Assembly (NCBI GenBank): GCA_964609775.1
Contig: CAZSSJ010000001.1
Span: forward strand, 22,858-86,857
Direction: 5' to 3'
DNA length: 64,000 bases
Source: an uncultured Gammaproteobacteria bacterium
GTDB taxonomy: Bacteria > Patescibacteriota > Microgenomatia > JAMCZE01
The translations under genes were made by a program, and so were the position numbers. The notes beneath the pieces were generated by a model. The model was not told the DNA's origin. It ran no database searches and saw only the letters and a program-made list of their open reading frames with translations. This document shows, in pieces, positions 34,258 through 58,977 of this stretch (the stretch's first letter is position 1; each line of letters opens with the position of its first letter).

Positions 34258-34273
34258 AAAGTTAGCCTATGAT

Positions 34274-40336: not shown

Positions 40337-40375
40337 GTTGGGACTGGCTGGGAATCGGAGGAAGGAAATCGCATC

Positions 40376-40404: not shown

Positions 40405-40410
40405 GTGGGT

Positions 40411-41074: not shown

Positions 41075-41080
41075 AGAGAC

Positions 41081-41473
41081 CTACCATATTTCCTGTGGTC
41101 CATATTCCTGGTCGAAATCTTTTTGAGCTAAGCGAACATATTTCTCTTCGGTAATCTGCCAAGAGGTGCCGTCTCCCTTTGGATCCCATTCGGTGCGTAA
41201 TAGAACAGTGTTTGGTGTGCGGGTTTTCCAGCGAGATTCGCGAATGTCCGGCCTTTTTGTTCGAACCGCTTCATCATATTCATCGTATTTTCGACCCGTT
41301 AGTCCTATTCTTTCTTGAGCTAATCGACGGCCTTCTTCAGTCCAAGGACGAAATTCAATTCTCCTTCCTTGTTGGCCAGGTCCAAAACCAAGATTTGGAT
41401 GGAGAAAATAATCAAGTTCTATTTTATCCTGCTCAAATAGAGCTTGTGTCTCCGGCGATTGATTTACGGACAT
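41081..41473 (-). CDS. Small hypothetical protein C (130 aa), intact paralog of G
   Basis: Shares EGRRLAQERIGLTGRKY and TPNTVLLRTEWDPKGD with 48494-48877. Its stop is 6 nt from the vapC stop. Confidence 0.6.
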   Translation of the reverse strand: MSVNQSPETQALFEQDKIELDYFLHPNLGFGPGQQGRRIEFRPWTEEGRRLAQERIGLTGRKYDEYDEAVRTKRPDIRESRWKTRTPNTVLLRTEWDPKGDGTSWQITEEKYVRLAQKDFDQEYGPQEIW

Positions 41474-41508
41474 GGCCTTATTCTCTCTCTCTCTTCCTAA
41501 AAAGTCAA
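41474..41508 (-). promoter_or_regulatory. Shared promoter module, copy C (TTGACT variant): spacer 17, N6, ATG
   Basis: TTGACTTTTTAGGAAGAGAGAGAGAGAATAAGGCCATG. Confidence 0.6.
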
Positions 41509-41597
41509 ATTTGGTTGGGCCGGAAAAGTGGTCGTGTCTTATTTATGCGATCGCATTTTTAAGAAGTCAGTTGGTTGATAAGAGAAGATAGGATAAA

Positions 41598-41626
41598 TTG
41601 ACATTATTAATTGATTCGACTATAAT
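41598..41626 (+). promoter_or_regulatory. Consensus promoter of the wHTH/NTase pair
   Basis: TTGACA-N17-TATAAT, then a leader with AAGAGG before the ATG at 41647. Confidence 0.6.
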
Positions 41627-41646
41627 CGAAAAGAGGCATAAAACAT

Positions 41647-42234
41647 ATGAAGAAAATCGAACTCATTTGGCGGGAGATTCTAGAGAACGGACAGAAAGAT
41701 CCCGTTTTTGAACAGAAGGAGCTGGCGTCAAGACTGGGATTGTCCACGAGCACGGTTTTTGCGGCGCTTGAGCCATTGAGAGCAATTGGAGCGGTAACGG
41801 TTGGCGGCCGGGGGTTTCGGTTGACTAATTTTTCCAAAGTGCTCTTCTTTTGGGCGACGCATCGAAATTTGGCCAAAGATATCGTTTACAAAACGAGGGT
41901 TGATCTGCCAATGGTCGAAATTGAGGGCCTGGTTGACAACGAAACGATTTACGGGGCATATAGTGCCGGCCGCAGGCTTCTGGGGCAGGCTCCGGCTGAC
42001 TATGACAAAGTCTATCTTTATGCCTCAAAAACAGACAATTTGATCAGGAGATTTCCGAGGGCGGGGGGGGCAGCCAACGTTTTTGTCCTGCAGGCTGATC
42101 CGGGCTTGCCGGCTTTTGGCAAAATGACCCCGGTGTCGCAGACGTTTGTTGATTTGTGGAATTTGCCGGACTGGTTTGCGCAGGATTTTTTGGAGGCTTT
42201 AAAGGAGAAATTTTATGGCGGATTATTATCATGA
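41647..42234 (+). CDS. Winged-HTH protein (AbiEi/MarR-like; candidate antitoxin or regulator)
   Basis: QKELASRLGLSTSTVFAALEPLRAIGAV HTH. Overlaps the downstream NTase-fold gene by 20 nt. Confidence 0.5.
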   Translation: MKKIELIWREILENGQKDPVFEQKELASRLGLSTSTVFAALEPLRAIGAVTVGGRGFRLTNFSKVLFFWATHRNLAKDIVYKTRVDLPMVEIEGLVDNETIYGAYSAGRRLLGQAPADYDKVYLYASKTDNLIRRFPRAGGAANVFVLQADPGLPAFGKMTPVSQTFVDLWNLPDWFAQDFLEALKEKFYGGLLS

Positions 42235-42826
42235 TTTAGTGACTGACAAGAGTTGGAAGACTTTGCAGGAACTTAAGAGCCAGGTGGATTTTGTGCTCAT
42301 CGGCGGGTGGGCGGTTTATTTATATACAAAAGCTTTGAAGTCGAAAGACATTGACATTATTGTCAATTTTGACCAACTGGACAGATTAAGGAGTCAATTT
42401 GAGGTCGTCAAAAATGAGCGGTTGAAGAAATATGAAGCGAGGCGCGAGGAAGTCCAGATTGATGTCTATTTGCCGCACTTCAGCGAAATTGGAGTGCCCA
42501 TTGAGGAGGTTGTCAAAAGGGTCGTTTCCCGGGAGACGTTTGTGGTTCCGGTGCCGGAGGCGCTTCTCATTTTGAAGCAGTTTATTTTGGGGCAGAGGGG
42601 GCTGTCGGCCAAGGGCCAAAAAGACCGACTGGACATCTTGTCGATCCTCCTTTCGGTTGAGGTGAACTTTAGGGAATATCGCAAATTAACGCAGGCGTGG
42701 GGCTTGACTTCTTTTCCTTCGGAGCTGGCGGAACTTGTTTCGACAACGGTCAGAATTCCGGAGCTATCGGTTGATGAGTATCAATGGTCGAAGGTGAAAA
42801 AGAAGGTTTTGAACTTGGTGGCTTAG
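42215..42826 (+). CDS. Nucleotidyltransferase-fold protein (candidate toxin partner)
   Basis: LIGGWAVYLY...SKDIDIIV matches the G[GS]-x-D.D minimal NTase motif. Confidence 0.5.
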   Translation: MADYYHDLVTDKSWKTLQELKSQVDFVLIGGWAVYLYTKALKSKDIDIIVNFDQLDRLRSQFEVVKNERLKKYEARREEVQIDVYLPHFSEIGVPIEEVVKRVVSRETFVVPVPEALLILKQFILGQRGLSAKGQKDRLDILSILLSVEVNFREYRKLTQAWGLTSFPSELAELVSTTVRIPELSVDEYQWSKVKKKVLNLVA

Positions 42827-42888
42827 CGTCGGGTTTTTAGTTGTCTCCCGTGTTTAGATTTGTGGTCCGAGAGCTTGAGAATATGACA

Positions 42889-43344
42889 TTAGTTTTGAGG
42901 TTGGAGCATTTTGATGAGACTGCCTAGTCTTGCTGCTTGATCTTCGCCGATCGTTGATGCAGTCTGGGCTGCACCGAGGAATTCTTCACGTAGAAATTGT
43001 CTTTCAGGGTTCCTTCCTAGGGCTACTGCGTCCTTTCCCTCTGCTGAGGCCGCGCTTTCGAGCCATTTTGCCTGGTCTATTTTCAGATAATTTATTGCTT
43101 TTTGCCTGGCAGCCGGGTCGTTGTTTTTTAATCCCGTGGCAATCTGTTCGATTACTGCGCGGCCAGCTTCGTACATGGCCCGGATTTCCCCTTGATCATC
43201 GCCCCAACCCTCGCCTGCTTTTTCAGCCGCCTCAAGCTCATGCTCAAAGTAGGTTATCGGATTAGCGTAGATTTCGTTCGATTCGGCTTCGTACCAATGA
43301 GGGAATCTGCCAGTTTGAGTTGTTTTTTCTGTTCTGTCAGCCAT
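42889..43344 (-). CDS. Small hypothetical protein D (151 aa from the ATG at 43344)
   Basis: GGAGGT lies 7 nt upstream of the ATG. The track ORF starts at a TTG at 43359. No family recognised. Confidence 0.5.
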   Translation of the reverse strand: MADRTEKTTQTGRFPHWYEAESNEIYANPITYFEHELEAAEKAGEGWGDDQGEIRAMYEAGRAVIEQIATGLKNNDPAARQKAINYLKIDQAKWLESAASAEGKDAVALGRNPERQFLREEFLGAAQTASTIGEDQAARLGSLIKMLQPQN

Positions 43345-43395
43345 TTGAATTACCTCCAAGGTCTATTGTCTCTCTCTCTCTTCCTAAAAAGTCAA
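43345..43395 (-). promoter_or_regulatory. Shared promoter module, copy D (TTGACT variant): spacer 19, -10 GACAAT, SD-containing leader
   Basis: TTGACTTTTTAGGAAGAGAGAGAGAGACAATAGACCTTGGAGGTAATTCAAATG. Confidence 0.55.
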
Positions 43396-43440
43396 ATTTT
43401 GGCTTTGCGTTTTGGCTACGAAGTTGATATACTCTGAGAA

Positions 43441-43716
43441 ATGCAAACTACGCTTCTTAACTACCGAATCATTGTTGAGCCCGACAGCCAAACTGGAACA
43501 GGCAAGCTTGGATACACAGCCTATGCACCCACCTTGGGAGTGGCTGATGATGGAAAGACAATTGAAGAGGCAATTAAAAATGTTCGGGGCGCAATTGAAG
43601 CATTTGTGGAAAGTTTGATCGTTGATGGGCAACCAGTGCCAACAGACCGAGTGGAGCAAGATCTTGTGGCGACGGCACAAATTTCGGTTAACGGCCCGGT
43701 TCAATTCGCTTTTTAA
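43441..43716 (+). CDS. hicB: HicB-family antitoxin
   Basis: YRIIVEPDSQTGTGKLGYTAYAPTLGVADDGKTIEEAIKNVRGAIEAFVESL. TATACT-N7-ATG. Confidence 0.75.
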   Translation: MQTTLLNYRIIVEPDSQTGTGKLGYTAYAPTLGVADDGKTIEEAIKNVRGAIEAFVESLIVDGQPVPTDRVEQDLVATAQISVNGPVQFAF

Positions 43717-43937
43717 TGCCTGAGATTCCTCAAATTAAACCTCGGAATGTGGAAAAAGTGCTACTGAAAAGAGGTTTTGTCGGCCGGACAACAAAAAGCA
43801 GTCATGTTGTTTTTGTTCATAAGGATGGCAGGCGCACAGTTGTTCCGGTTCACAATAAACCGGTGAGCACAGGAACTCTTCGGGCAATCCTTCGCCAGGC
43901 AAAGATTTCCGTGGAGGAGTTTTTGGAGGAAGTTTAA
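43716..43937 (+). CDS. hicA: HicA-family mRNA interferase toxin
   Basis: KPRNVEKVLLKRGFVGRTTKSSHVVFVHKDGRRTVVPVHNKPVSTGTLRAILRQAKI. Confidence 0.8.
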   Translation: MPEIPQIKPRNVEKVLLKRGFVGRTTKSSHVVFVHKDGRRTVVPVHNKPVSTGTLRAILRQAKISVEEFLEEV

Positions 43938-44374
43938 TTGGGAGATGGGGTTTCTGGTGGACTTGAGAACTTTTCTAGTTGTTTTGCTAGAGCCCTGAAA
44001 CCTGACAAAAACCATGTCTCGCCTTCATCCTCACTTTTTTTTGGTTCGAGACCGTACTCTTCAGACATTGCGTTGACAACTCCTGAGAAGTCGTTCAGGG
44101 TCTGAGCAGTTCTGAGGGCGTCTTGCCACAACTGTATACCTTGTTCCGCTGCCGCATACATTGCTGGGTCGTCTTGTGGATCTACACGGTTCCTGATTAT
44201 TAGCTCATTATTGAGTCTTGTTTGGGCGAGCAGAATTGCATCCTGCCGAGCTTTTCGGTCGGATACCGATTTTCCAACATATCTGTTTCTAAACTCAGCT
44301 GGTAGTCTGTTTTCCAGAACTGCCCAAGCTTTCCTGGGATTAAAGTTCTCTTCAACATTATTTTTTTCTGACAT
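43934..44374 (-). CDS. Small hypothetical protein E (146 aa)
   Basis: The ATG follows GAGAAT-N7. Its 3' end overlaps the hicA stop by 4 nt. No family recognised. Confidence 0.5.
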   Translation of the reverse strand: MSEKNNVEENFNPRKAWAVLENRLPAEFRNRYVGKSVSDRKARQDAILLAQTRLNNELIIRNRVDPQDDPAMYAAAEQGIQLWQDALRTAQTLNDFSGVVNAMSEEYGLEPKKSEDEGETWFLSGFRALAKQLEKFSSPPETPSPN

Positions 44375-46274: not shown

Positions 46275-46763
46275 TTATTTTTGAGCGAGGCGCATTTTGT
46301 AACTAAATGAATGAGTGATGGCGACGGCCAGAGCGTCGGCGGCGTCGTCGGGCCTCGGAACGGTCTTTAAATTCAGAACTGATTTTACCATCATTTGGAT
46401 CTGATATTTATCGGCCCGGCCGTAGCCTGTCAGAGCCTGTTTAATTTGAAGAGGGGTGTAGGAATGGAGAGACAGACTTTTGAGTTGGGCGCAGAGGAGA
46501 ACAATGCCGCGAGACTGGCCGACAGCCAGAGCGGTTTTGGCGTTGGCGGCAAAAAATAGCTCCTCGACAGCCAGGGTGTGGGGGTGATGGGTGGTGATGA
46601 GTTTTTCCAGAAAGCGAAAAATGATTTCCAGACGCTCCTCTTCGGGGAGGTGGGCGGCGGTTTCCTGACAGCCGAAATCGATGAGATCAAGCCTGCCTTG
46701 ATCATCTTTAATGAGCCCCCAACCGAGGCGGGCAAAACCGGGATCAATGCCCAAAATTTTCAT
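46275..46763 (-). CDS. ruvC: Crossover junction endodeoxyribonuclease RuvC
   Basis: MKILGIDPGFARLGWGLI..., RuvC length and motifs. Confidence 0.9.
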   Translation of the reverse strand: MKILGIDPGFARLGWGLIKDDQGRLDLIDFGCQETAAHLPEEERLEIIFRFLEKLITTHHPHTLAVEELFFAANAKTALAVGQSRGIVLLCAQLKSLSLHSYTPLQIKQALTGYGRADKYQIQMMVKSVLNLKTVPRPDDAADALAVAITHSFSYKMRLAQK

Positions 46764-47291: not shown

Positions 47292-48365
47292 ATGGCTGAT
47301 ATTAATCGATTTGACCAGCGGCTGGAGAATTTGCCGTCAGGAATTTGGGCTAGGGTTGCCCGGATTGATGAGCTGAAGGGGAGGTTTGTGGCGGGAGCAG
47401 AGCTTGGGCCGCAAGCTTTAAAGGGGCTCCGAAGATCGGTTCTGGTGACTTCTTCCGGAGCCTCGACCCGGATTGAGGGAGCCAAACTTTCTGATGAGGA
47501 CGTGGAGAAAATGATGCGGGGCATTGATATTGTGAAGTTTGCTAACCGGGACAAACAAGAGGTCCAAGGCTACTTTGAGCTGTTACAAAATGTGTTTGCT
47601 TCCTGGGAGGATTTGAGTCTTTCAGAAGGAACGATCAAACATTTTCACCAAGAGCTTCTGAAGTACGTGGAGAAGGACAAGTTACATCGGGGAGAGTATA
47701 AGCACGACGAGAACAAAGTGGAAATGATCAACGAGGCAGGGGAGTCGGTTGGATTGTTGTTTGATACGACTCCAGCTTACCTTACACCAAAAGAAATGCT
47801 CGAGCTCGTGGAGTGGACACAAGGGGCACTTGAAGAGAAAAGATTCCACACCCTGCTCATTATTGGAAATTTCCTGGTGGAGTTTCTCAATATTCACCCG
47901 TTTACTGACGGAAACGGCCGTTTGTCACGGATCTTAACCAATGTGCTTCTTGTTAAGGCAGGCTACGCATTTATGCCTTATGTTTCACACGAGAAGCTTG
48001 TTGAGGGCAATAAGCCAGATTACTATCTGGCCTTAAGAAGTAGCCAGCGAACTTTTAAGGCACCCGGGGAGACGGTTGTTCCTTGGCTGGATTTCTTTCT
48101 CGCAGTTCTTCTTAAACAGGCGCAGACGGCAGTCGATTTACTCTCGGCGGCCACTATTGAACGGACGCTGTCAACAAAACAAATAGTTGTTTGGCAATAC
48201 CTTCAATCGAAGGAGGAGGCTACTCCGGGAGAGGTTGCCAGTCAAACGGGAGTGCCCCGGCCAACAGTTAATCAGGCCTTGGGTAAACTGGTGCGGCTCA
48301 AAATGGTTGAAAAGATTGGTTTGGGCCGGGCGACGAGATACCGGAAGCAAAGGCGAGAAATATAA
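47292..48365 (+). CDS. fic: Fic/DOC family protein with C-terminal wHTH
   Basis: Fic motif HPFTDGNGRLSR. C-terminal ...EVASQTGVPRPTVNQALGKLV. Confidence 0.85.
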   Translation: MADINRFDQRLENLPSGIWARVARIDELKGRFVAGAELGPQALKGLRRSVLVTSSGASTRIEGAKLSDEDVEKMMRGIDIVKFANRDKQEVQGYFELLQNVFASWEDLSLSEGTIKHFHQELLKYVEKDKLHRGEYKHDENKVEMINEAGESVGLLFDTTPAYLTPKEMLELVEWTQGALEEKRFHTLLIIGNFLVEFLNIHPFTDGNGRLSRILTNVLLVKAGYAFMPYVSHEKLVEGNKPDYYLALRSSQRTFKAPGETVVPWLDFFLAVLLKQAQTAVDLLSAATIERTLSTKQIVVWQYLQSKEEATPGEVASQTGVPRPTVNQALGKLVRLKMVEKIGLGRATRYRKQRREI

Positions 48366-49194: not shown

Positions 49195-50262
49195 TTATTT
49201 GAGAAGACTCTCTTGATAGAGAGGGCTTTCTACAACCTGCTTCCAGGCGGCAACAGCGTTTGGTGATGATTGGAGACGATAATCGCGGCCGGAACCATCC
49301 CTTGAGTTAAACCAGACAGCTACTTTAACCTTCGGGAGCTTTTCAGGGATCGTTGTGAGAAATCCCTGTTTTATCCAATTCGCCTGAGCCATCGGATCAT
49401 CGGGATTTGCCATTGCACCAACTTCCCAAAGAATCATCGGACGAGAAGAAAAGCCAGTAACAAAGTCATAGGTGGATTTGAACTCATCTTCGAGCGACCG
49501 CCAATTATTTTGAGCATTGCTGTAGCCGTCTAAGGCGACCCAGTCAACATAGTTGTCGCCGGGATAGAGCTCTTTAAAGATGCCTCCATACGTATTCAAG
49601 TTGTCATCGCTAAGGACACTGGCGCACCAAACAAACTGGACATTAGTGGCTTTTTCCCGGCGAAAAATGTCGACAATGTGCTTCCAGGCGGCGACAAAAT
49701 CTGCCGGATTGGTGTTGCCATTGACACTATAGCCCCACGGATACCAAGTGCCATCCATTTCGTGGAGAAAACGAAGAATGAAGGGATAATGGTAGGCGGC
49801 CGCGTCTTTGGCAAATTGAGTAATATATTGGTCATGTCGGCCGGAGGCAATTGCCTTCCAAGAATAATCTGTTTGGTTAATGGCTTGTTGCCGATCTGGA
49901 TAGGCCTCTATTGACCCTTTTGACGGACTCCAGGTTATTCCGGGCATAATACCCCGGGTTCGGAATTCATCGAGCATCGGAGGGTAAAATGGAATGTAGC
50001 TTCCGTCTAAGCGTTTCCACGTGGTTGGCTGCCAGGCAAAAGCGGGTTTTCTGCCAGCCTCTTTAATGTACCTGTCGATATTATCTCCCGAAGTATCTTT
50101 TTGGGGTTGATAGATTCCTAGGGCTATCCCCGAGGAAGGAATGATCGGAGACTGATCATTACGAAGTTCCGACAAATTGGGGGAGCGAAAAAGCCTCGGC
50201 AGCTGTGAAAGGACCAGAATACCGGCGACCGTGATTATGGCAACCAATAAGTATTTGTGCAT
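49195..50262 (-). CDS. Secreted GH26-like glycoside hydrolase
   Basis: N-terminal TM/signal. YPFILRFLHEMDGTWYPWGY, YPGDNYVDWVALDGYS, ILWEVGA. Confidence 0.6.
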   Translation of the reverse strand: MHKYLLVAIITVAGILVLSQLPRLFRSPNLSELRNDQSPIIPSSGIALGIYQPQKDTSGDNIDRYIKEAGRKPAFAWQPTTWKRLDGSYIPFYPPMLDEFRTRGIMPGITWSPSKGSIEAYPDRQQAINQTDYSWKAIASGRHDQYITQFAKDAAAYHYPFILRFLHEMDGTWYPWGYSVNGNTNPADFVAAWKHIVDIFRREKATNVQFVWCASVLSDDNLNTYGGIFKELYPGDNYVDWVALDGYSNAQNNWRSLEDEFKSTYDFVTGFSSRPMILWEVGAMANPDDPMAQANWIKQGFLTTIPEKLPKVKVAVWFNSRDGSGRDYRLQSSPNAVAAWKQVVESPLYQESLLK

Positions 50263-50299
50263 GTTTTAGTTATTGAGTGTTTATATTAAAATAATTGGT

Positions 50300-53257
50300 T
50301 TAATTGACAAAGACGGTGATGGAGTTGGTGGCAGATTTACCTGAGGAGTCAGTGACCTTGGCGGTGACGAGGTATTGGCCGCTCGGGACGGATGAGCCGA
50401 GAGTGACAGAACAGGAGTAGGGAAAAGTGGTGTCGGTGCATTTCAGACTATCTTTAACATAGAACTCAACTTTGGTCACAGGAAGGCTGCTTTCAACCTG
50501 GGTAGTGGCAGTGGTGTTTTTCTTGACGAGACTGCCGTTTGTGGGCGAGTTGATCTTGATGGTCAGGATCGAAGCGGTCGGGTCGAGTGAGGTGGCGGGA
50601 CTTCTGGTTGGGCTTTCGGATGGAGGAGTTGGTGCGGGGTTTGATGAGAGCGCCACAACGGGAGTGGGAGCCGAGGCGGTGGGGGCGAGGGAGTTAAAAA
50701 GATTTCCTTGATAGAGAGGGCTGGCGACCACCTGTTTCCAGGCGTTAAGAGAATTTTGGGAAGAATCAACTGCATAGTTCACTGTTTTTCTGTCATTAAT
50801 GGAGTTGAACCAGTTGACCATCTTAACATCGGGAAATAGTTGCGGAATAGTAGTTAAAAATCCCTGGGTAATCCAGTTGGCTTTAGCCATCGAGTCTTTG
50901 GGATCTTCCGACGCTCCAACTTCATAAAAAGCCATCCGCCGGTGGGTAAAAGTTTTTAAGAATTGGTAAGCAGGTTGAAAGTCATCCTGAAGAGAACGCT
51001 TGGTCGATGCCGGATTGCTATAACCATCCAGAGCGATCCAATCAACATAGTCGTCTCCGGGATAAAGTTGCTTAAGAACGTCTTTGTATTGATCAATCCG
51101 GCTGGGAGTCAGGACACTGGCAGCCCAGCACCAGGCAAACTGGACATTAGTGGCTCCTTCTTTCCTGAAGATATCTACGACGTGTTTCCAGGCGGCAACA
51201 AAATCAGCGGGATTTGTGTTTCCATTGACTGAATATCCCCACGGGTACCAATTGCCATCCATTTCCGCAAACACTCGTACAATAAAAGGATAGTGATAGG
51301 CGGCAGCATCTTTGGCAACCTGGGTGATATACGCATCATGCATCCCTGAGTTGATTGCTTGCCAAGAAAAATCCGGCTGATTTTCATTCAGTGCCGATCC
51401 CTTTGATGCATCCCAGTTTAAGCCGGGCATAATTCCCCTTGTCCGGAACTGGTCCAGGAGACGAGGATCAAATTGCTGATAGGCGCCGGTATTGGGGTTC
51501 TGCCATTTAACCGAAAACCAGGCAAAAGCAGGCTTCCTGCCAACCTCTTTAGTGTATTGGTCTACGGCAGTGCCGTGACCGAAGGGGTCTGCGGCCGGTT
51601 GATAGACACCGAGGGATATGCCATTGGAGCCGGTTGGAGAGGGGCGGCACCAGCCTTCGGCTGGTTCGGGCAGAAGACAGGCGGGCTTGGAATCAAGGCA
51701 AGCGGGGCGGGGTTTACAAGTTGTTGGAGGTGGTGGGAGGGGATTTGTCTGTTGAGGTTCGACAAAGACGGGTGATTTGGTCAGTTGGATAGTATTGGTG
51801 CTGATAGTGCTTTCTTTGCCGGTCACATCGGTGACTTGGGCACCGGTGAAGGGCAGGGTGACGGTGGCATTATCGCTTTCAGACCAGAGAATGTAGATGT
51901 CCTTGCCATGATTAGAGAATTCATAGGCCCGGACATTGCTTCCCAAAGAAAGTTTTTGCTGGAAAGAACCGTCCGTGAGCTTATCTGAGATGACTTTAAA
52001 GGCGGCGGCGGCGGGGCGGGGGGTGCCGGAATTGTCAATTAAGCCGACGTGGGCTTCACTGATGGCGAAATCGGTCATGGTCCAGTAGACAAACCGGTCA
52101 ACTTTTCCAGCAAAGCCAATGACCATTTTCCGGACCAGTTCCCGGGCGTGCTCGTCTGGGTCGTAGCCCTTTCCCGGGGCGCCGCGCCAGCCGTACCAGG
52201 CTTCCCACCAGGAAATCGGCTTGTCGTCGCCGACGCCTTTAAGGCTGGTGTGCAGATATTCCAGGACTTTTTCCAGGTTCTGCCAGGGAGCGCCGTTGTG
52301 GATTTGGAGCTTGTCAATATATTTATGATTGGCAAAAATGTTGTTTTCCCAGGCAATGGTGTCCTGAACACCCGGGGCAGCGAGGGTTTGTTTAAGCTCG
52401 TCGATGGTATTAAAGTGAACTGTTTGGCCGGCTTTCTCCTGATGAGCGGTATAGGAGTTGGCGAAGTCGAGGGCTTCCTGGTTGCGGCCTTCGTTCACAA
52501 GCCAGTTGGCCGTTAAATAGCCCAGACCTTCATAGGACATGCCGGCGTCGGTGACGACGGCGTTGGGGTCGGCGGCGTGGACAGCTTTGGAGGCATTTTG
52601 CAACAGTTTGGTATAGTCTTCCCGGCTGGCGCCCCAATTGCCTGGCCAGTGAGCCTCGTTTTCGACGGAATAGTGGGTGATTTTGCCTTTATAGTGTTTG
52701 GTCACTTCGTAGACAAATTTATAGTAGTCGTCCCAGTTTTTTGGGGGCATGGAGTGATTGCCGGAGAGCTTGATGTCCGGCGGGAAGGGCTGAGTGGCCC
52801 AGGAGGCATTGGAAACAAGGTGGACCATGATTTCCTGGCCGCAACTTTCGTAGCTGTCGACCCAATTGTCAAACTGTTTCCAGACCCACTGATTACGGTT
52901 AACGGGTTGAATGCGGGCCCAGGAGAGGACGAGCCAGTTGACAGTCGAACCGTTGGTTGTGAGAGTTTCACAAAATTTGTCTTTTTGACTGCCGAGGGCT
53001 TGATCGATGGGGGCTCCAGTGCCTATCAGGAGGCCGGTCCTTGGCGGCTGGCTTTTGCCCACTCCGGGTTTAGTCGGAAAGATAGAGTTAGATCTAATAG
53101 CTTCCTCAACGTTTGAGGCGAGGTTTTTAGCTGCTTGGGTTATTTTAGTGACTTCCTGGCGGATCTGGGGACTTTGTTTGTAGGCAGTGAGACCCAGCAG
53201 GGTGGTGGCGGCAAGGATTATTGGTATGAAGATGAAGGCGAAGCCAGATTGTTTCAT
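50300..53257 (-). CDS. Secreted multidomain glycosidase: TIM-barrel GH (GH5/39-like), GH26-like domain, Pro/Ser linker, Ig-like domain
   Basis: HYSVENEAHWPGNW is a NE acid/base-like motif. The second half is a paralog of 49195-50262 (YPFIVRVFAEMDGNWYPWGY). C-terminal VEFYVKD...VTAKVTDSSGKSATNSITVFV. Confidence 0.65.
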   Translation of the reverse strand: MKQSGFAFIFIPIILAATTLLGLTAYKQSPQIRQEVTKITQAAKNLASNVEEAIRSNSIFPTKPGVGKSQPPRTGLLIGTGAPIDQALGSQKDKFCETLTTNGSTVNWLVLSWARIQPVNRNQWVWKQFDNWVDSYESCGQEIMVHLVSNASWATQPFPPDIKLSGNHSMPPKNWDDYYKFVYEVTKHYKGKITHYSVENEAHWPGNWGASREDYTKLLQNASKAVHAADPNAVVTDAGMSYEGLGYLTANWLVNEGRNQEALDFANSYTAHQEKAGQTVHFNTIDELKQTLAAPGVQDTIAWENNIFANHKYIDKLQIHNGAPWQNLEKVLEYLHTSLKGVGDDKPISWWEAWYGWRGAPGKGYDPDEHARELVRKMVIGFAGKVDRFVYWTMTDFAISEAHVGLIDNSGTPRPAAAAFKVISDKLTDGSFQQKLSLGSNVRAYEFSNHGKDIYILWSESDNATVTLPFTGAQVTDVTGKESTISTNTIQLTKSPVFVEPQQTNPLPPPPTTCKPRPACLDSKPACLLPEPAEGWCRPSPTGSNGISLGVYQPAADPFGHGTAVDQYTKEVGRKPAFAWFSVKWQNPNTGAYQQFDPRLLDQFRTRGIMPGLNWDASKGSALNENQPDFSWQAINSGMHDAYITQVAKDAAAYHYPFIVRVFAEMDGNWYPWGYSVNGNTNPADFVAAWKHVVDIFRKEGATNVQFAWCWAASVLTPSRIDQYKDVLKQLYPGDDYVDWIALDGYSNPASTKRSLQDDFQPAYQFLKTFTHRRMAFYEVGASEDPKDSMAKANWITQGFLTTIPQLFPDVKMVNWFNSINDRKTVNYAVDSSQNSLNAWKQVVASPLYQGNLFNSLAPTASAPTPVVALSSNPAPTPPSESPTRSPATSLDPTASILTIKINSPTNGSLVKKNTTATTQVESSLPVTKVEFYVKDSLKCTDTTFPYSCSVTLGSSVPSGQYLVTAKVTDSSGKSATNSITVFVN

Positions 53258-53301
53258 TGGGGATTAATGTCAGTCGAGTTTAAGGCAGAAAGCCTTGGTT
53301 G

Positions 53302-54333
53302 TCAATCTAAGATTTCTTCATCCGGTTCGTTAGCCTGTTTTTGGAGTAGAGGGAAATCGACAGTGGTGACGGCGTTTTTCGTGATGGGAAAGAGACCGGG
53401 ACTCACAGCAATGAAACCCTTGGGGGCCGAGGGGGACCACTTCTTCAAAAGTAGCTGCTTCCCACTTTTGCAGTAGAAATAGTTATTGCCAGTGGGGATT
53501 TTGACCGGGCGGTTGATGCCGGCACAGGTCTCAAATTTAAAGCCTGCCGGGATGAGCGGTTTTTTAATTTTATAGTCGCCGGTAGGAATTTCCCCAAAAG
53601 AGTAGTTTTCTTTGCCGGTGTTTTTTCCGGAATCAAGGATGGCGACTAGTGTGTTTGCGCCAGAGTCGACTTTAGTCAGAGTTAAACTGGCTTTTTTGAC
53701 CGAGGGTTCGACGGACTCGGCGTTTTTTCTGGCGTTGTGGTCGGTTTCGTCGTCATGCCAGATGTAGCCTGTCAGGGGGCCTTTGTCCGAGGCGGTTTGG
53801 ATTTTTTCGACCTGGATTTCGCAGGTGGAGTTGTTTTGAGCGGAGGGGTACCAGAGACTCGCGTTAGTGCCGCAGGTAGTTTTAGAGACCTTCCAATTCG
53901 AGGGAAGGTTAGTGCTGCCGGTTTCAGGGCAACTCGTACAAAGAGTGATTTGGTAGCCGGCGCCAGTTGTTGAGTCAGACCAGGTGGCACAGCCGGCGCC
54001 GTTGCAGGCGGAAGGACTGTAGGTTTGGACACGGCCTTTTTGGCAGACCGGGTCGGAGCAGGAGGCGTTGCAGCCGGTTGGACAAGCGGACATGAAGGTG
54101 GCGCGGACACTCACTTGGCTGGGGTATTTCTGGCCAGTGGCCCGGTCTTTTATTTTAATCGTCAGCGGGTTTCCGAAGGGTGGTGGCGGGGGGGGCGGGG
54201 GGGGGGGGGGGGGGCGGGCTTTGCTCGTAGCCGGAACAAAGCAAGGGAGCCGTGTTGCTGCAGTAGGAGTTGTAGTCCGAATAGGCAGGCTTGATGAGTC
54301 CGGAAGTGAGGCAAGTTTTGACGTCCGGAACAC
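53302..54333 (-). CDS. Cys-rich / SdrD-B (CnaB-like) domain region; probably the C-terminal part of the upstream M64-like gene
   Basis: Its first 40 residues are low-complexity and read the alternate frame of 54155-55594. Real-looking sequence starts after the shared poly-Pro (FGNPLTIKIKDRATG...). GYIWHDDETDHN...YSFGEIPTGDYKIK. Confidence 0.5.
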   Translation of the reverse strand: MFRTSKLASLPDSSSLPIRTTTPTAATRLPCFVPATSKARPPPPPPPPPPPPFGNPLTIKIKDRATGQKYPSQVSVRATFMSACPTGCNASCSDPVCQKGRVQTYSPSACNGAGCATWSDSTTGAGYQITLCTSCPETGSTNLPSNWKVSKTTCGTNASLWYPSAQNNSTCEIQVEKIQTASDKGPLTGYIWHDDETDHNARKNAESVEPSVKKASLTLTKVDSGANTLVAILDSGKNTGKENYSFGEIPTGDYKIKKPLIPAGFKFETCAGINRPVKIPTGNNYFYCKSGKQLLLKKWSPSAPKGFIAVSPGLFPITKNAVTTVDFPLLQKQANEPDEEILD

Positions 54334-55594
54334 ACCAGTTGGTGGTCCAGACGTAAGAGGAATCTCCGATCATGGGAGTCCCCGAGGGAATTGGGGCGAA
54401 GAGATTGATGGCGCCACGCATGGCGGGCTCGTCAACGGGGTCAAGGTGATAACCGGATTCTGACCAGAGTGTCTCCATAATGCAGCTGCCAGAGGTGGAT
54501 TTGTAACGGTTGGTGTAGGTGCAGATGGTGTAGCAGTTTGTTCCGGGGATTCCTGACCATTTGCCACAAGCAGAAGAGGTATCACAGTTTGCGTGAATGT
54601 TTCGGTTGGGGTTGGTTTCAATTTTGTTGTAATCATATTCATCATTTAAGTTTCCGATGCCATGACCTAATTCATGATAGAGGGTAAGTCCGGGAAAAGG
54701 CAGATTTGATTGTGATCGTGACATGAGGGCATACTTGATTGGCGGATAATAGGACCAGCCAATCTTGTCGTCGATGCCTTCAAGAATAACAATGAAGTCG
54801 TAGTTGGTTTGGGAAGCGATGTTGTAGATTAAAGCACTGTCGCAATCAAGATTTTCAGCGTTATTAAAACTGTTACACAAGATTTGATCGTTGTGGATTT
54901 TCGCGAATCTGATTTTTGATCGATATTCGTTCCAAGGTGACTGAGCCAGGAGGAAGTTAGTCATACTGCTAACGTCCGCATCAAATAGGTCAAAGTCGGA
55001 ATAGCGGTCGCTTATAAAGGTAAGGTCAAGGTAACCGTCAGAGGAAAGACCCGACTGGGGAGCCGGAGTGTTAGATGACTTGACAACATAACTTTTTTTA
55101 AGGATTGCCGATTGAATCTTTAGGCTGTCTAAGACTTGGGTCTTTTTTGGCTGGCTATGGCGAATTTGGATTGTAGCGCCCGTTTGGTAAGGGAAAGAGA
55201 TTACCACTCGGGGCTCGGAAAAAATCTTATCCTGTCTATTGATTTGTTTTTTTTCAGAAGCGAAAGTTTCGATGGCGAGACTGTCAGTAAATTTAATGCT
55301 TGCTTTCCAGGTGGTTTTTCCGTTTAAAACTTGTTCGATTTCATCAGTTTCACTGTCAGTTTTTTGGTTTGGCAAGTAGGGGGTATAGCCATTGTTGGCG
55401 AGGGCTTTTTGAATGGAGATTTTGCCGGTGGTGGGGTTTTTGGTTAAGACGAGGATGAGGTTGGTGTCTGCTTTGAGGCCAGTAGCTTTGTCTTGGAGAC
55501 GGGTTTGTTGGGTGACAATAAATAGAGTTGCACCTAGGAGGGGGAGGAGGAGAAGGACGAGAGTGAGGCTGAGGGTGGCGGCACCTTTTTTCAT
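54155..55594 (-). CDS. Secreted M64 (IgA-peptidase-like) zinc metalloprotease, truncated by a frame change in the poly-C tract
   Basis: Signal peptide. HELGHGIGNLNDEYDY matches the M64-type HExxHxxxxLxDEY. Ends 15 codons after the poly-Pro. Confidence 0.65.
   Translation of the reverse strand: MKKGAATLSLTLVLLLLPLLGATLFIVTQQTRLQDKATGLKADTNLILVLTKNPTTGKISIQKALANNGYTPYLPNQKTDSETDEIEQVLNGKTTWKASIKFTDSLAIETFASEKKQINRQDKIFSEPRVVISFPYQTGATIQIRHSQPKKTQVLDSLKIQSAILKKSYVVKSSNTPAPQSGLSSDGYLDLTFISDRYSDFDLFDADVSSMTNFLLAQSPWNEYRSKIRFAKIHNDQILCNSFNNAENLDCDSALIYNIASQTNYDFIVILEGIDDKIGWSYYPPIKYALMSRSQSNLPFPGLTLYHELGHGIGNLNDEYDYNKIETNPNRNIHANCDTSSACGKWSGIPGTNCYTICTYTNRYKSTSGSCIMETLWSESGYHLDPVDEPAMRGAINLFAPIPSGTPMIGDSSYVWTTNWCVPDVKTCLTSGLIKPAYSDYNSYCSNTAPLLCSGYEQSPPPPPPPAPPATTLRKPADD
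54188..54218. repeat. G8-C-G18-C-G3 homopolymer tract (poly-Pro codons on the minus strand)
   Basis: Read directly: G run 54188-54195 and G run 54197-54214. Confidence 0.95.
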
Positions 55595-55651
55595 GGGTAT
55601 AGTTATAGTATTTAGATTATTACTCCCACAAGGCCTGTCAAGGGTTCAGGA

Positions 55652-55794
55652 TTGACAGTAAGATGGCCGACTAGTAAGATTAGACCGTATGAATGGTCGT
55701 GTTTTGCTTTTGGCTCTCCTTCAAAGCTCGCAATAGCGGGGAAGGTTTGTTGGCAAAACACATCTTAATCCCGCAAAAGGCGGGATTTTTTGTT
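55652..55794 (+). promoter_or_regulatory. Promoter plus structured ~110-nt transcript ending in an intrinsic terminator (cis-leader of the 4HB-leuS operon, or a small RNA)
   Basis: TTGACA(55652)-N17-TAAGAT(55675). 9-bp stem GTGTTTTGC(55699)/GCAAAACAC(55753). Inner CTCGC-aata-GCGGG hairpin. No plus-strand gene lies upstream. Confidence 0.45.
55767..55794 (+). terminator. Rho-independent terminator
   Basis: AATCCCGC-aaaag-GCGGGATT followed by TTTTGTT, 12 nt before the ATG at 55806. Confidence 0.7.
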
Positions 55795-55805
55795 AGGATT
55801 AGCCT

Positions 55806-56408
55806 ATGGATCAGGAAAATTGGGGGAATCAGGGAGATCAGTTTAAGAAAGCGGGCTACCAGTATCTGTTGGCTTGGAAAATAACTGTTCCCATTTATGA
55901 TTACACTGTCATTTTTTGCAGGAAGTATCGCAGATTGCTCTCTTCTGAGCGGACTTATGACCAGATGGTGCAGGCGGCCAGAAGCGGGACACAAAATGTT
56001 CCGGAGGGAAATCAACAGGCAAGTCTTGAAGGCTACATCAAATTGACTGGTGTTAACAAAGCCTCATTGGAGGAACTATTGAGGGATTTCCTGGCGTTTG
56101 CCAGACAGAATCAGATTCCAATTTGGTCAAAGGAAAGGTGTGTCAGGGAAATTAGGGAAATTGGGGAGATCTGGGGGATTCTTAAAAATAATAAAACGCT
56201 CCCTGACGATCCCAATTTCCCGAATTTCCCTGACAAATTGGAGATCGGCGTCAATTTAATGATAACATTGGTCCATCAAGCAATTTTTCTTCAAGGGAAA
56301 TTAAAGGAGTCTTTGGAGAAAAAGTTCATCGAGGAAGGTGGTTTTAGAGAGAACTTGTTTAGAAAGAGAATGGACTGGCGAAGGAGGCAGAATGGACAGG
56401 AAGTATGA
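55806..56408 (+). CDS. Four-helix-bundle protein (23S rRNA IVS / Avd-like family) with C-terminal suffix domain
   Basis: YQYLLAWKITVPIYDYTVIFCRKY...TYDQMVQAARSGTQNVPEG...ASLEELLRDF matches the family pattern from memory. Confidence 0.55.
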   Translation: MDQENWGNQGDQFKKAGYQYLLAWKITVPIYDYTVIFCRKYRRLLSSERTYDQMVQAARSGTQNVPEGNQQASLEGYIKLTGVNKASLEELLRDFLAFARQNQIPIWSKERCVREIREIGEIWGILKNNKTLPDDPNFPNFPDKLEIGVNLMITLVHQAIFLQGKLKESLEKKFIEEGGFRENLFRKRMDWRRRQNGQEV

Positions 56409-58977
56409 ACCGGCAGAGATAGAGAAGAAGTGGCCCTCCTTCGCCAAGGCTTCGGACGGGCAAGCAGGACGTTATAACCATCGGGAGATTGAGCATAAGT
56501 GGCAGGAGGTGTGGGAAAAAGAGAAACTATATCTAACTCCAAAACCTGATGCCGAGCATCCGAAGAGATACATTTTGGATATGTTTCCCTACCCGTCGGG
56601 GGCGGGACTTCATGTTGGGCATATGGAAGGCTACGTGGCCACGGATGTTATTGTCAGATACCTGCGGATGAAGGGGCTTTCGGTTCTTCACCCGATGGGC
56701 TGGGACGCGTTTGGCCTGCCGGCCGAGAATTATGCGATTAAAGAAGGAATTGCCCCTGATAAGTCGACGCACGAGAATATCAAGAATTTTAAGTATCAGC
56801 TTCAACTTTTGGGACTGTCTTATGATTGGTCCAAAGAAATAGATACATCTAGCCCGAAGTATTACAAATGGACACAGTGGTTGTTTACGCTGCTGTTTAA
56901 AAAGGGCTTAGCCTATAAAAAGAAAGCGCCGGCGAATTGGTGCCCCAAGGACGAAACGGTGCTGGCCAACGAGCAGGTGGTTGATGGGAAATGCGAACGG
57001 TGCGGGACGGCGGTAGTGCAAAAGGAATTGGAGCAGTGGTTTTTTAAGATTACGGATTATGCGGATAAGCTGATTTCCGGTCTGGACAAAGTCGATTGGC
57101 CGGAATCGACCAAGACGCAGCAGGTTAACTGGATTGGGAAGAAAGAGGGCATCGAAATTACTTATGAGGTGGTAGGTGTTCCTGACGAAATTACTGTTTT
57201 TACGACTGCTCCGGTTAACTTTGGGATGACCTTTTTGGTTTTAGGACCAGAACACCATTTCGTCCAGAAAATTATTTCTGGTGAAATTAAGATTTCTTCT
57301 GAGACTCAAAAAGAAGTTAAGGATTATGTTGAGGCGGCGGGTAAAAAGACAGAACTGGAGAGGATCGCTGCGGGTAGGGAGAAGACAGGGGTGTTTACCA
57401 CTTTATATGCAATTAACTCCATTAATGGTAAAAAAGTGCCGATTTATGTGACTGATTTTGTTTTAGGGCATGTGGGTACTGGTGCGGTTCAAGGTTGCCC
57501 GGCGCATGATCTTAAAGACTTTCAGTTTGCAAAGAAGTTTAACTTGCCGATCGTTAGAGTTGTTGAGGGTCCCGATGGTGATGCTGGACCGGTAGAGAGA
57601 GAAGATCAGATTATTGAAAAGGGAATGCGGGGTACATTTATTAATTCAGAGTTTTTGAACGGCTTGAGTTTTGAGGGAGGACTGCAAAAGACGATGGACT
57701 ATTTTGTTGAAAAAGGCGTTGGTAGGAGGGTGGTGACCTATCACATTCGGGATTGGCTGATTTCGAGGCAGAGATATTGGGGGTGCCCGATCCCGATGGT
57801 GTTTTGCGAAAAAGACAGCTGGCAGCCTGTTCCTGATTCAGAACTACCTATTTTGTTACCAACTGATATAGATTTTCGACCGACCGGGGAATCACCGATT
57901 GCCAGATCAGGGTCTTTCCAAAAAGGGGTAAGGTGCCCGGTTTGCGGGGAGGCAGCCAAGCGGGAGGTAGACACCATGGACACTTACGTCGACTCCTCAT
58001 GGTATTTTTACCGCTTTGTAGATCCGGATAATAACAAAAAATTCGCTTCGAAGAAGGCTCTCGAAACATGGATGCCGGTGGACATTTATGTTGGCGGCGG
58101 GCATGTGGTCCAGCACCTGCTGTTTGCCCGATTCTTCCACAAAGTTCTCGTCGATGCAGGATATATTAAGGGTGATGGCGCTGGTGAGCCTTTCCTAAAG
58201 CTTAGAGCGCCGGGATGGATTTTGGGCCCGGACTCTCGCAAGATGAGCAAGCGCTGGGCGAACGTTATCACTCCGGAGGAAGTGGTTGCCAAACATGGAG
58301 CGGACACGATGCGGATGTATGAGATGTTTATGGCGCCGTTTGAAGTCGATAAACCGTGGAATGTCAACTCGGTGGCTGGGGTGCAGCGCTTTTTGAGCCG
58401 AATTTACGGTTTGTTTGAAAGATCTTATCAGTTGAAGGACGCAGTTGCTGGCGAAGCAATGGCTCGTGAGATTAATAAATTGGTTTTTAAGGTCGGCAAA
58501 GATATTGAGGGTTTCAAGTTCAATACGGCAGTGGCTGCCATGATGGAGTTTGTGAATCAGGTACAGGCAGGATTGAAGACGAAGGAGCAGGGTGAAGGAA
58601 GCTACACCTGGAGAGTGGTTTGGGAGAAGTTTCTGACCGTTTTGGCGCCGTTTGCGCCGCATTTGGCGGAGGAGCTGTGGTCCCACTTCGCCAAGGCTTC
58701 GCGGGACAAGCATGGATATGTTTCTGTCCATCAGCAGTCGTGGCCGGAGGTTGATGAGAAATATCTGGGCCAGGAAAGCAGGACGATCGTGGTGTCGATT
58801 AATGGCAAGGCGAGAGCGACATTGAAAATGAGCAATGGGCAATCCTCAATGAGCAATAGCCAGGAGGAGGTTGAGAAGTTGGCGAGAGGAGATCAGAATG
58901 TGGCGAAGTGGCTGGAAGGGAAAGAGGTTAAGAAAGTGGTCTACGTACCAGGCAAGATTGTCAACTTCGTCGTTTAA
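56392..58977 (+). CDS. leuS: Leucine--tRNA ligase
   Basis: FPYPSGAGLHVGHMEGY (HIGH region), KMSKRW (KMSKS). ATG at 56392 after GAAGGAGG; the track ORF opens at 56338. Confidence 0.95.
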   Translation: MDRKYEPAEIEKKWPSFAKASDGQAGRYNHREIEHKWQEVWEKEKLYLTPKPDAEHPKRYILDMFPYPSGAGLHVGHMEGYVATDVIVRYLRMKGLSVLHPMGWDAFGLPAENYAIKEGIAPDKSTHENIKNFKYQLQLLGLSYDWSKEIDTSSPKYYKWTQWLFTLLFKKGLAYKKKAPANWCPKDETVLANEQVVDGKCERCGTAVVQKELEQWFFKITDYADKLISGLDKVDWPESTKTQQVNWIGKKEGIEITYEVVGVPDEITVFTTAPVNFGMTFLVLGPEHHFVQKIISGEIKISSETQKEVKDYVEAAGKKTELERIAAGREKTGVFTTLYAINSINGKKVPIYVTDFVLGHVGTGAVQGCPAHDLKDFQFAKKFNLPIVRVVEGPDGDAGPVEREDQIIEKGMRGTFINSEFLNGLSFEGGLQKTMDYFVEKGVGRRVVTYHIRDWLISRQRYWGCPIPMVFCEKDSWQPVPDSELPILLPTDIDFRPTGESPIARSGSFQKGVRCPVCGEAAKREVDTMDTYVDSSWYFYRFVDPDNNKKFASKKALETWMPVDIYVGGGHVVQHLLFARFFHKVLVDAGYIKGDGAGEPFLKLRAPGWILGPDSRKMSKRWANVITPEEVVAKHGADTMRMYEMFMAPFEVDKPWNVNSVAGVQRFLSRIYGLFERSYQLKDAVAGEAMAREINKLVFKVGKDIEGFKFNTAVAAMMEFVNQVQAGLKTKEQGEGSYTWRVVWEKFLTVLAPFAPHLAEELWSHFAKASRDKHGYVSVHQQSWPEVDEKYLGQESRTIVVSINGKARATLKMSNGQSSMSNSQEEVEKLARGDQNVAKWLEGKEVKKVVYVPGKIVNFVV

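What the first reader, a model, noticed from the sequence alone, without database searches (positions are those of the whole stretch)
54155..54333. G18 homopolymer splits an M64-like peptidase from its CnaB-like C-terminal half
ORFs 54155-55594 and 53302-54333 overlap by 179 nt, and both translate the C-rich tract (minus strand) as poly-Pro in frames one nucleotide apart. The first 40 residues of the downstream ORF are just the alternate frame of the upstream gene. Losing one C (C18 to C17) or gaining two would fuse them into one secreted protein of about 750 aa: peptidase, poly-Pro linker, then Cys-rich and SdrD-B-like domains. An 18-nt homopolymer is highly slippage-prone, so this is either a phase-variable ON/OFF switch for a surface protease or a homopolymer sequencing error.
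Basis: partly seen in the sequence, partly recalled or inferred. Interest (0 to 1): 0.5.

Follow-up and report, generated by a model that had tools for sequence, protein, structure and literature searches.

The report
Spurious G-run splits one peptidase gene
The G18 run that cuts this secreted zinc-peptidase gene in two is almost certainly a sequencing and assembly artefact at a G-rich proline-linker, because every other assembly of the same organism that spans the site has one intact gene, and all but one show no homopolymer there.

Summary
G18 lies at 54197-54214, two ORFs overlap by 179 nt, and removing one C or adding two gives one ORF of 763 or 764 aa. The homopolymer itself is probably not real.

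- **Sibling assemblies.** At least 13 independent contigs of the same Candidatus Gottesmanbacteria population match the window exactly over about 27 kb around the site. At the tract they read AGCCCGCCCCCACCGCCTCCCCCGCCACCACCC: ten mixed Pro codons, no run longer than 5, one 760-aa ORF.
- **What differs.** The window differs from them only inside the tract, by A>C, T>C and 10 extra C.
- **Other assemblies disagree.** One has a 12-nt deletion, one has C17-T-C5, and at least eight contigs end or join chimerically at this spot.
- **Direct sign of read failure.** One contig ends in C31 followed by 89 nt of C-smeared junk. That junk lines up with the true downstream sequence at the canonical allele's length plus 1.
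- **Likely trigger.** The canonical G-rich strand fits a G-quadruplex motif, a context with raised Illumina error rates.
- **Distant orthologs.** Proteins at 38-41% identity are single ORFs of 762-768 aa with no run longer than 6.

The gene is an ordinary secreted M64-like metallopeptidase with a Pro linker, a Cys-rich region and an SdrD_B-like domain. Phase variation is not supported, but cannot be fully excluded without raw reads.

The parts
54197..54214 (-). C18 run on the gene strand (G18 on +). This is the frameshifting element, and is judged artefactual.
   Evidence: Searches show the run. At the same place, canonical sibling contigs read CCCCCACC instead.
54188..54195 (-). C8 run (G8 on +). 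The canonical allele has CCTCCCCC here; position 54193 is T in the siblings.
54178..54220 (-). The whole Pro-linker coding tract: 43 nt in the window and 33 nt in the canonical allele (AGC CCG CCC CCA CCG CCT CCC CCG CCA CCA CCC). The canonical + strand fits a G-quadruplex motif.
53302..55594 (-). The true single gene. It is 760 aa in sibling assemblies (OGG19390.1) and would be 763 or 764 aa in the window if its frame were repaired.
54155..55594 (-). Upstream ORF of 479 aa: N-terminal hydrophobic segment plus M64-like peptidase domain. Codons after the C18 run (54155-54196) are out of frame.
53302..54333 (-). Downstream ORF of 343 aa. Only 53302-54196 is in the gene's true reading frame (the C8 at 54188-54195 within it is itself altered; canonical CCTCCCCC). 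54197-54333 is the alternate frame of the upstream gene.
54662..54676 (-). HELGH zinc-binding motif (residues 307-311), followed by NLNDEY.
   Evidence: Read directly. H307, E308 and H311 are nearly invariant in 48 homologs.
53530..53766 (-). SdrD_B-like (CnaB-type) domain.
   Evidence: The window protein scores only E=0.18. The homologous stretch of orthologs scores better: P0007 E=3.3e-5 and P0009 29.8 bits against a cut-off of 29.7.
55505..55594 (-). N-terminal hydrophobic segment (MKKGAATLSLTLVLLLLPLLGATLFIV), read as a signal peptide or membrane anchor.
   Evidence: Read directly from the sequence; no predictor was run.

Best explanation
The G18/C18 run is not part of the organism's genome.

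**True sequence (shown by sibling assemblies).** The real sequence is a 33-nt linker of ten mixed proline codons inside one 760-aa gene. The gene encodes a secreted M64-like zinc metallopeptidase with a Pro linker, a Cys-rich region and an SdrD_B-like domain.

**How the artefact arose (inferred).**
- The G-rich complement of the linker, GGGTGGTGGCGGGGGAGGCGGTGGGGGCGGG, is a G-quadruplex-type motif.
- Illumina reads crossing it are systematically degraded. The interrupting A, G and T are called as C on the gene strand (G on the + strand), and reads lose register.
- Assemblers then either break contigs here or join error-smeared read ends.
- In the window's assembly, such a join produced C18-G-C8, which is 10 nt too long. 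That shifts the frame and splits the gene into 479-aa and 343-aa ORFs.
For: 1. **Same strain, difference confined to the tract.** The window is 100.000% identical to MFJK01000007.1 over 31647-52234 (20,588 nt). It is also identical to it over 50302-58594 except for 2 substitutions and a 10-nt insertion, all within 54193-54209.
2. **The canonical allele dominates.** The 760-aa product is carried by 13 contigs from ENA, NCBI and Logan, and a JGI contig (L016) also has the canonical tract and a 760-aa gene. All copies read have the interrupted 33-nt tract.
3. **The window's product is not reproduced.** The 479-aa product is listed on one NCBI contig only (100,526 nt, presumably the window's own record), and the gene index holds no copy of it.
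4. **The poly-C versions disagree with each other.** The window has C18-G-C8-G. L017/L027 have C17-T-C5-G. L004/L015/L025 have a 12-nt deletion.
5. **Contigs fail at this exact spot.**
   - Contig ends: L021, L022, L030, L031, L032, L033.
   - Chimeric joins: L005, L006, L007.
   - The UY21 MAG carries the gene on two different contigs.
6. **One contig shows the read failure directly.** L030 ends with AGCCCG + C31 + GG, then 89 nt that match the true downstream sequence best at offset +1 relative to the canonical allele (-9 relative to the window allele). Its errors are A>C 10, G>C 15 and T>C 9. Smeared reads of a canonical-length allele therefore do generate a pseudo-homopolymer.
7. **The same project's own contigs fit canonical block lengths.** The two MEGAHIT contigs from SRR1658343 (PRJNA268031, the Rifle project whose other assemblies also show poly-C here) end in exactly C17 and begin with exactly C8-G-C8-G. 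Those are the lengths of the canonical blocks with A, G and T replaced by C.
8. **A plausible trigger exists.** The canonical + strand fits the G4 motif, and this is the most G-rich 40-mer in the window (35/40 G as assembled). A G4 is predicted when quadruplexes are allowed in folding. G4 motifs show 2-3.6-fold more mismatches and 7-9-fold more insertion errors in Illumina data (PMC10519405).
9. **Distant orthologs are intact.** P0007 (41% identity, 762 aa) and P0008 (38%, 768 aa) are single ORFs spanning both halves, and their genes have no run longer than 6.
Against: - No raw reads could be examined, so the error mechanism is inferred from assembled contigs.
- Poly-C versions appear in at least three assemblies made with different assemblers, so the runs are present in reads and are not an assembler invention.
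- L021 is error-free immediately downstream of its C8-G-C8-G start.
- Substitution-type Illumina errors do not by themselves explain 6-10 extra bases. The mis-join explanation for the extra length is an inference.
- A genuine long homopolymer would also dephase reads, break contigs and leave junk tails.
- The poly-C alleles I could trace (SRR1658343, BioProject PRJNA268031, the 2011 Rifle time series by my own recollection) point to one project. I assume, but could not confirm, that SAMN03202994 and the window's own record belong to it too. That pattern fits a batch artefact, but equally a transient subpopulation.
Confidence: 0.8

Rival explanations
1. The poly-C run is a real, hypermutable tract in a subpopulation. 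Loss of the A, G or T interruptions created a run that expands and contracts by slippage. This would switch the C-terminal Cys-rich and SdrD_B-like half of the peptidase ON (C17-T allele, 762 aa) and OFF (C18-G-C8 allele), as in classical phase variation.
For: - Long C runs of 17-18 occur in assemblies from at least two data sets: SAMN03202994 (L017) and SRR1658343 (L021 and L031, consistent with the window).
- One of these alleles is in frame and one is out of frame.
- Contig breaks and a dephased tail are also what a real long homopolymer would cause.
- From my own knowledge, misalignment ('dislocation') mutagenesis can convert bases next to a run into the run's base.
Against: - The alleles differ by complex changes, with different interruptions lost in each, rather than by unit steps.
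- There are no other differences in about 27 kb.
- At least 13 contigs have no run longer than 5.
- The window's allele is not reproduced by any other assembly in the collection.
- L030's junk tail has the canonical length, not that of a long-run allele.
- The window holds no other long homopolymer that would suggest a contingency-locus repertoire.
- Orthologs lack a tract.
Confidence: 0.14
2. The frameshift is real and fixed in this genome. Either the gene is a pseudogene or two separate products, or full-length protein is recovered by transcriptional slippage or ribosomal frameshifting on the C run.
For: The sequence as deposited has the frameshift. From my own knowledge, long homopolymers promote RNA-polymerase slippage.
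Against: - This needs the run to be real, and the same objections apply as for the phase-variation rival.
- The downstream ORF has no plausible start of its own. Its first ~45 codons are the alternate frame of the conserved upstream sequence, and annotators called 263-270-aa fragments from internal ATGs.
- Orthologs show no conserved slippery site.
Confidence: 0.03

Closest known systems
Systematic Illumina errors and assembly breaks at G-quadruplex or G-rich motifs (non-B DNA sequencing bias; PMC10519405)
   Same: - The canonical + strand fits G3+N1-7 x4.
- Errors convert the interrupting bases to the dominant base.
- There are insertion-like length errors.
- Contig ends cluster at the motif, and one contig carries a dephased tail.
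   Different: No read-level qualities were seen here. The size of the length error (+6 to +10 nt) is larger than typical per-read insertion errors and probably needs an assembly mis-join as well.
Homopolymer phase variation (contingency loci with poly-G or poly-C tracts, as in Neisseria, Haemophilus, Campylobacter and Helicobacter surface-protein genes; my own knowledge)
   Same: A long G/C run inside the coding region of a secreted or surface protein, where a change of one base toggles the frame.
   Different: - The tract is absent from most assemblies of the same strain and from orthologs.
- The variants are not unit-step length variants.
- No other such tract occurs in the 64 kb.
Peptidase family M64 (IgA peptidase-like zinc metallopeptidases, Pfam PF09471) with C-terminal SdrD_B/CnaB-type domains
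   Same: - A HELGH...NDEY motif is present.
- 40 of 48 homologs hit PF09471.
- The closest orthologs pass its cut-off, and orthologs hit SdrD_B in the homologous C-terminal stretch.
   Different: - The window protein itself is below both Pfam cut-offs (19.5 vs 26 bits for PF09471; E=0.18 for SdrD_B).
- There is no PDB or NCBIfam sequence match.
- The substrate is unknown.

Membership tests
Phase-variable contingency locus (homopolymer slippage switch) | A homopolymer or simple repeat in the coding region or promoter whose length sets the reading frame | tested here: met
   In the window as deposited, C18 sets the frame: -1 or +2 nt fuses the ORFs.
Phase-variable contingency locus (homopolymer slippage switch) | Sibling genomes or populations differ by unit-step changes in the length of the same tract | tested here: not met
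   Four alleles were seen: the interrupted 33 nt, a 12-nt deletion, C17-T-C5 and C18-G-C8. They differ by substitutions plus 6-12-nt changes.
Phase-variable contingency locus (homopolymer slippage switch) | The tract is maintained in related strains or orthologs | tested here: not met
   At least 13 contigs of the same strain have no run longer than 5. Orthologs P0007 and P0008 have no run longer than 6 in the gene.
Phase-variable contingency locus (homopolymer slippage switch) | Within-sample length heterogeneity in accurate reads | not testable with these tools
   No raw reads are available.
Sequencing or assembly artefact at a G4/G-rich motif | The variant is not reproducible across independent assemblies of the same population | tested here: met
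   The 479-aa product is seen only on one NCBI contig. Other assemblies give the canonical allele, other alleles, or break at the site.
Sequencing or assembly artefact at a G4/G-rich motif | Direct signs of read degradation starting at the motif | tested here: met
   L030 has a C31 run plus a C-smeared tail in register with the canonical allele at offset +1. At least eight contig ends or chimeric joins fall at the site.
Sequencing or assembly artefact at a G4/G-rich motif | Strand-specific low-quality miscalls in raw reads | not testable with these tools
   No raw reads are available.
Peptidase M64 (PF09471) | Match to the family profile above the gathering score | tested here: inconclusive
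   The window protein scores 19.5 bits against a cut-off of 26. Orthologs P0007 (45.6 bits) and P0009 (54.2 bits) pass. 40 of 48 homologs hit at E<=0.001.
Peptidase M64 (PF09471) | HEXXH zinc-binding motif conserved | tested here: met
   HELGH is at residues 307-311. H307, E308 and H311 are nearly invariant in 48 homologs.
SdrD_B / CnaB-type domain (PF17210) | Match to the family profile | tested here: inconclusive
   The window protein scores E=0.18. In the homologous stretch, P0009 scores 29.8 bits (cut-off 29.7) and P0007 scores E=3.3e-5. No structure was predicted.

The most novel reading that the evidence does not exclude
A subpopulation of this CPR bacterium (Candidatus Gottesmanbacteria) in the 2011 Rifle samples really carried an expanding poly-C tract, born from a mixed-codon proline linker. 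It would toggle the C-terminal anchoring or adhesion half of a secreted M64-like protease. That would be an instance of homopolymer phase variation arising de novo in an uncultivated ultra-small bacterium.
Probability: 0.13. Interest if true: 0.5.

Novelty: not a real feature. Interest (0 to 1): 0.1.

Why it matters
Mainly as a caution. A deposited MAG contig carries a false frameshift that splits a 760-aa secreted peptidase into two 'genes'. The first 461 nt of another MAG's contig are unrelated sequence that joins the gene 34 nt downstream of the tract (L007), and several public assemblies break there. G4-type proline-linker sequences in strongly GC-skewed genomes can produce pseudo-homopolymers that mimic phase-variation switches. 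Scans for contingency loci in metagenome-assembled genomes should therefore check sibling assemblies or reads before calling them. Biologically the gene is ordinary: one more secreted hydrolase in a cluster of glycanases.

Tried and rejected
- **Word-indexed search with the repaired 763-aa protein.** It returned only its own cluster, probably because poly-Pro words swamped the 8000 candidates.
- **Same tool with the C-terminal half alone.** It returned nothing, although exact copies exist, so this was a tool-sensitivity failure.
- **Pattern scans of metagenome contigs and genome contigs.** Two patterns in each collection found 0 matches; these collections do not hold this organism.
- **PDB sequence search and NCBIfam.** No matches.
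- **Look-up of the 479-aa product's contig.** It is not on record, so the window's own record and sample could not be named.
- **Diversity-generating retroelement mutagenesis.** I considered and rejected this, because the changes are A>C, T>C and G>C towards one base rather than adenine-specific.
- **A k-mer loop as the sole cause.** I rejected this because MEGAHIT k127 contigs also carry C17 and C8 runs, so the runs are in the reads.
- **Structure prediction.** Not run.

Full report
**1. The observation**

On the + strand the window reads GGGTGGTGGC-G8-C-G18-CGGGCTTTGC. G18 is at 54197-54214 and G8 at 54188-54195. It is the only homopolymer longer than 9 in the 64 kb.

On the minus strand, ORF 54155-55594 (479 aa) and ORF 53302-54333 (343 aa) overlap by 179 nt. 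Both read the tract as poly-Pro in adjacent frames. Removing one C gives a 763-aa ORF, and adding two gives 764 aa.

**2. The two ORFs are one gene**

- The repaired protein matches a 760-aa protein at 99% identity over its full length.
- That protein's cluster holds OGG19390.1, a Candidatus Gottesmanbacteria hypothetical protein of 760 aa. It also holds a 756-aa variant, the window's 479-aa fragment, and 263-270-aa C-terminal fragments including KKU92035.1 of the UY21 MAG.
- The 760-aa product is encoded on 13 contigs from ENA, NCBI and Logan assemblies; a JGI contig (L016) carries the same canonical tract and a 760-aa gene.
- An exhaustive HMMER search found distant relatives that span both halves in a single stretch: P0007 (762 aa, 41% identity, query 8-751) and P0008 (768 aa, 38%).
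- The C-terminal module also occurs behind other N-terminal domains (P0020, P0024, P0036).

**3. What the gene encodes**

- The window protein hits Peptidase_M64 only weakly: 19.5 bits against a cut-off of 26. It hits SdrD_B at E=0.18.
- 40 of 48 homologs hit Peptidase_M64 (best E=2.5e-17). The closest orthologs pass the cut-off, at 45.6 and 54.2 bits.
- In those orthologs the stretch homologous to window residues ~598-670 hits SdrD_B, with P0009 at 29.8 bits against a cut-off of 29.7.
- HELGH (residues 307-311) and several cysteines are nearly invariant across the 48 homologs.
- The N-terminus is a hydrophobic segment, read directly from the sequence.
- Neighbouring genes encode two GH26 enzymes, a Pel9A-like beta-helix protein with dockerin, and an alpha-amylase.
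- The product is therefore a secreted or anchored M64-like zinc peptidase with a Pro linker, a Cys-rich region and a CnaB/SdrD_B-type domain. Its substrate is unknown.

**4. The tract in sibling assemblies**

The window is 100.000% identical to MFJK01000007.1 (GCA_001780905.1) over 31647-52234 (20,588 nt). It is also identical over 50302-58594 except at the tract, where the differences are two substitutions and a 10-nt insertion confined to 54193-54209.

| Allele | Sequence between GAGCAA and TTCGG | Product | Where seen |
|---|---|---|---|
| Canonical | AGC CCG CCC CCA CCG CCT CCC CCG CCA CCA CCC (33 nt, no run longer than 5) | 760 aa | L001-L003, L016, L018-L020, L023, L024, L026, L028, L029 |
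| 12-nt in-frame deletion | AGGCCTCCCCCGCCACCACCC | 756 aa | L004/L015/L025 |
| C17-T | AGCCCG-C17-T-C5-G..., 6 nt longer than canonical | 762 aa, in frame | L017/L027 (SAMN03202994) |
| Window | AGCCCG-C18-G-C8-G..., 10 nt longer than canonical | frameshifted | this window only |

The window's 479-aa product is listed on a single NCBI contig and is absent from the gene index. No other assembly in the collection reproduces it.

**5. The site wrecks assemblies**

- *Contigs ending at the tract from the left:*
  - L031 (SRR1658343, k127) ends at AGCCCG+C17.
  - L032 (JGI 3300025015) ends at AGCCCG+C10.
  - L033 ends at AGCCCGCCCCC.
  - L030 also ends here, with a junk tail (see section 6).
- *Contigs starting at the tract from the right:*
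  - L021 (SRR1658343) starts with C8-G-C8-G-CCACCACCC.
  - L022 starts with GCCTCCCCCG.
- *Unrelated sequence joined at or just after the tract:* L005, L006 and L007.
- *The UY21 MAG* carries the two sides of the gene on different contigs, C0031 and C0006.

In ERZ27254763, both contig ends (L033 and L022) are error-free canonical sequence that was simply not joined. The canonical allele itself is therefore hard to read through.

**6. Direct sign of read degradation**

L030 (ERZ4903137, k141) continues past AGCCCG with C31, then GG, then 89 nt that are a degraded copy of the true downstream sequence.

- The best register is offset +1 relative to the canonical allele. It would be -9 relative to the window allele and -5 relative to the C17-T allele.
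- 61% of positions match in that register.
- The errors run overwhelmingly towards C: A>C 10, G>C 15, T>C 9.
- The tail is 68% C, against 42% in the true sequence.

So molecules of essentially canonical length yield, reproducibly enough to be assembled, a pseudo-homopolymer followed by C-smeared sequence.

The two SRR1658343 contigs fit the same picture. C17 is exactly the length of CCCCCACCGCCTCCCCC with A, G and T called as C. C8-G-C8-G is exactly CCCCCACC-G-CCTCCCCC-G with A and T called as C.

Joining such ends through their C runs with the wrong overlap gives the window's C18-G-C8 (17+8-7). A blunt join of C17 to TCCCCCG gives the L017 allele (+6). This last step is my inference, not a shown fact.

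**7. Why this motif**

- The canonical + strand, GGGTGGTGGCGGGGGAGGCGGTGGGGGCGGG, fits the G3+N1-7 x4 quadruplex pattern. As assembled in the window, it is the most G-rich 40-mer there (35/40).
- With quadruplexes allowed, ViennaRNA predicts G4 elements on the G-rich strand: -41.4 against -6.8 kcal/mol. This is qualitative only, since the G4 parameters are RNA-derived. Nothing comparable is predicted on the C-rich strand.
- Weissensteiner et al. 2023 (PMC10519405) report 2.0-3.6-fold more mismatch errors and 7-9-fold more insertion errors at G4 motifs in Illumina data.
- SRR1658343, the one poly-C source I could trace, belongs to PRJNA268031, a Rifle aquifer series sampled at six time points with 150-nt reads (its 2011 date is my own recollection). 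I assume that SAMN03202994 and the window's record come from the same project. That would fit a batch or chemistry effect, but it also leaves room for a transient subpopulation.

**8. Rivals**

*A real hypermutable poly-C tract (phase variation)* is not excluded, for three reasons:
- the runs are in the reads;
- one allele is in frame and one is out of frame;
- a true long homopolymer would also dephase reads.

Against it:
- the complex, mutually inconsistent alleles on a background of zero other differences in 27 kb;
- the absence of any run in most assemblies and in orthologs;
- the canonical length of L030's tail;
- the lack of other long tracts in the window.

I give it about 0.14.

*A fixed real frameshift*, whether a pseudogene or a gene rescued by slippage, gets about 0.03.

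**9. Verdict**

However, the homopolymer itself is most likely an artefact rather than a miscounted real run, and the phase-variation reading is not supported. The underlying gene is an ordinary member of a known peptidase family. Interest is low.

**10. What led nowhere**

- The poly-Pro stretch swamped the first word-indexed search.
- The C-terminal query returned nothing.
- Four collection scans found nothing.
- PDB and NCBIfam gave no matches.
- The window's own record could not be retrieved.

Noticed in passing
window 1-64000: There is a strong positive GC skew on the + strand along the whole window (+0.03 to +0.38 in all but one 2-kb bin; 30001-32000 is -0.04; G 18961 vs C 13052), whatever the gene orientation. 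Pro codon choice follows it: CCC dominates in minus-strand genes and CCG in plus-strand genes.
   Followed up: partly
window 5946-21923 and 21951-28067 (+): Two giant adjacent ORFs of 5325 aa and 2038 aa. Not examined.
   Followed up: no
window 50544-50602, within the 985-aa GH26 gene (50300-53257) (not located further): A ~57-nt stretch is missing in L007 (the GH26 product is 964 aa instead of 985 aa), and contig L005 ends at 50602. This is a second place where assemblies of the same strain disagree.
   Followed up: partly
window ~49607-49608 and 49923-49968 (GH26 paralog 49195-50262): More assembly trouble: an N-run in L019, contig ends of L023 and L024 at 49608, and an alignment gap in L017. 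It may be caused by the two GH26 paralogs.
   Followed up: no
window ~37700-44000: A cluster of toxin-antitoxin or abortive-infection-type genes, seen in identical sibling loci: AbiEii twice, a PIN domain protein and a HicA toxin.
   Followed up: no
window 29619-36073 and 49195-53257: A run of secreted polysaccharide-degrading enzymes around the peptidase: Pel9A-like beta-helix with dockerin and Big_7, alpha-amylase, and two GH26 enzymes.
   Followed up: no
window 34879-34979, 42247-42602, 46628-46643, 47396-47420: Patches of dense SNPs in contigs L010 and L013, against otherwise identical sequence. These look like co-existing strain variants or recombined segments.
   Followed up: no
window 54177-54188 and 53201-53212 (-): The 12-nt CGCCACCACCCT is shared by the 3' end of the Pro tract and the signal-peptide region of the next gene (GH26). 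Contig L005 starts with a chimeric join through it.
   Followed up: partly
L007 1-461 (GCA_001003415.1 LCPD01000006.1): The first 461 nt of this deposited MAG contig are unrelated sequence joined 34 nt downstream of the tract. This is probably a chimeric contig start in a public genome.
   Followed up: partly
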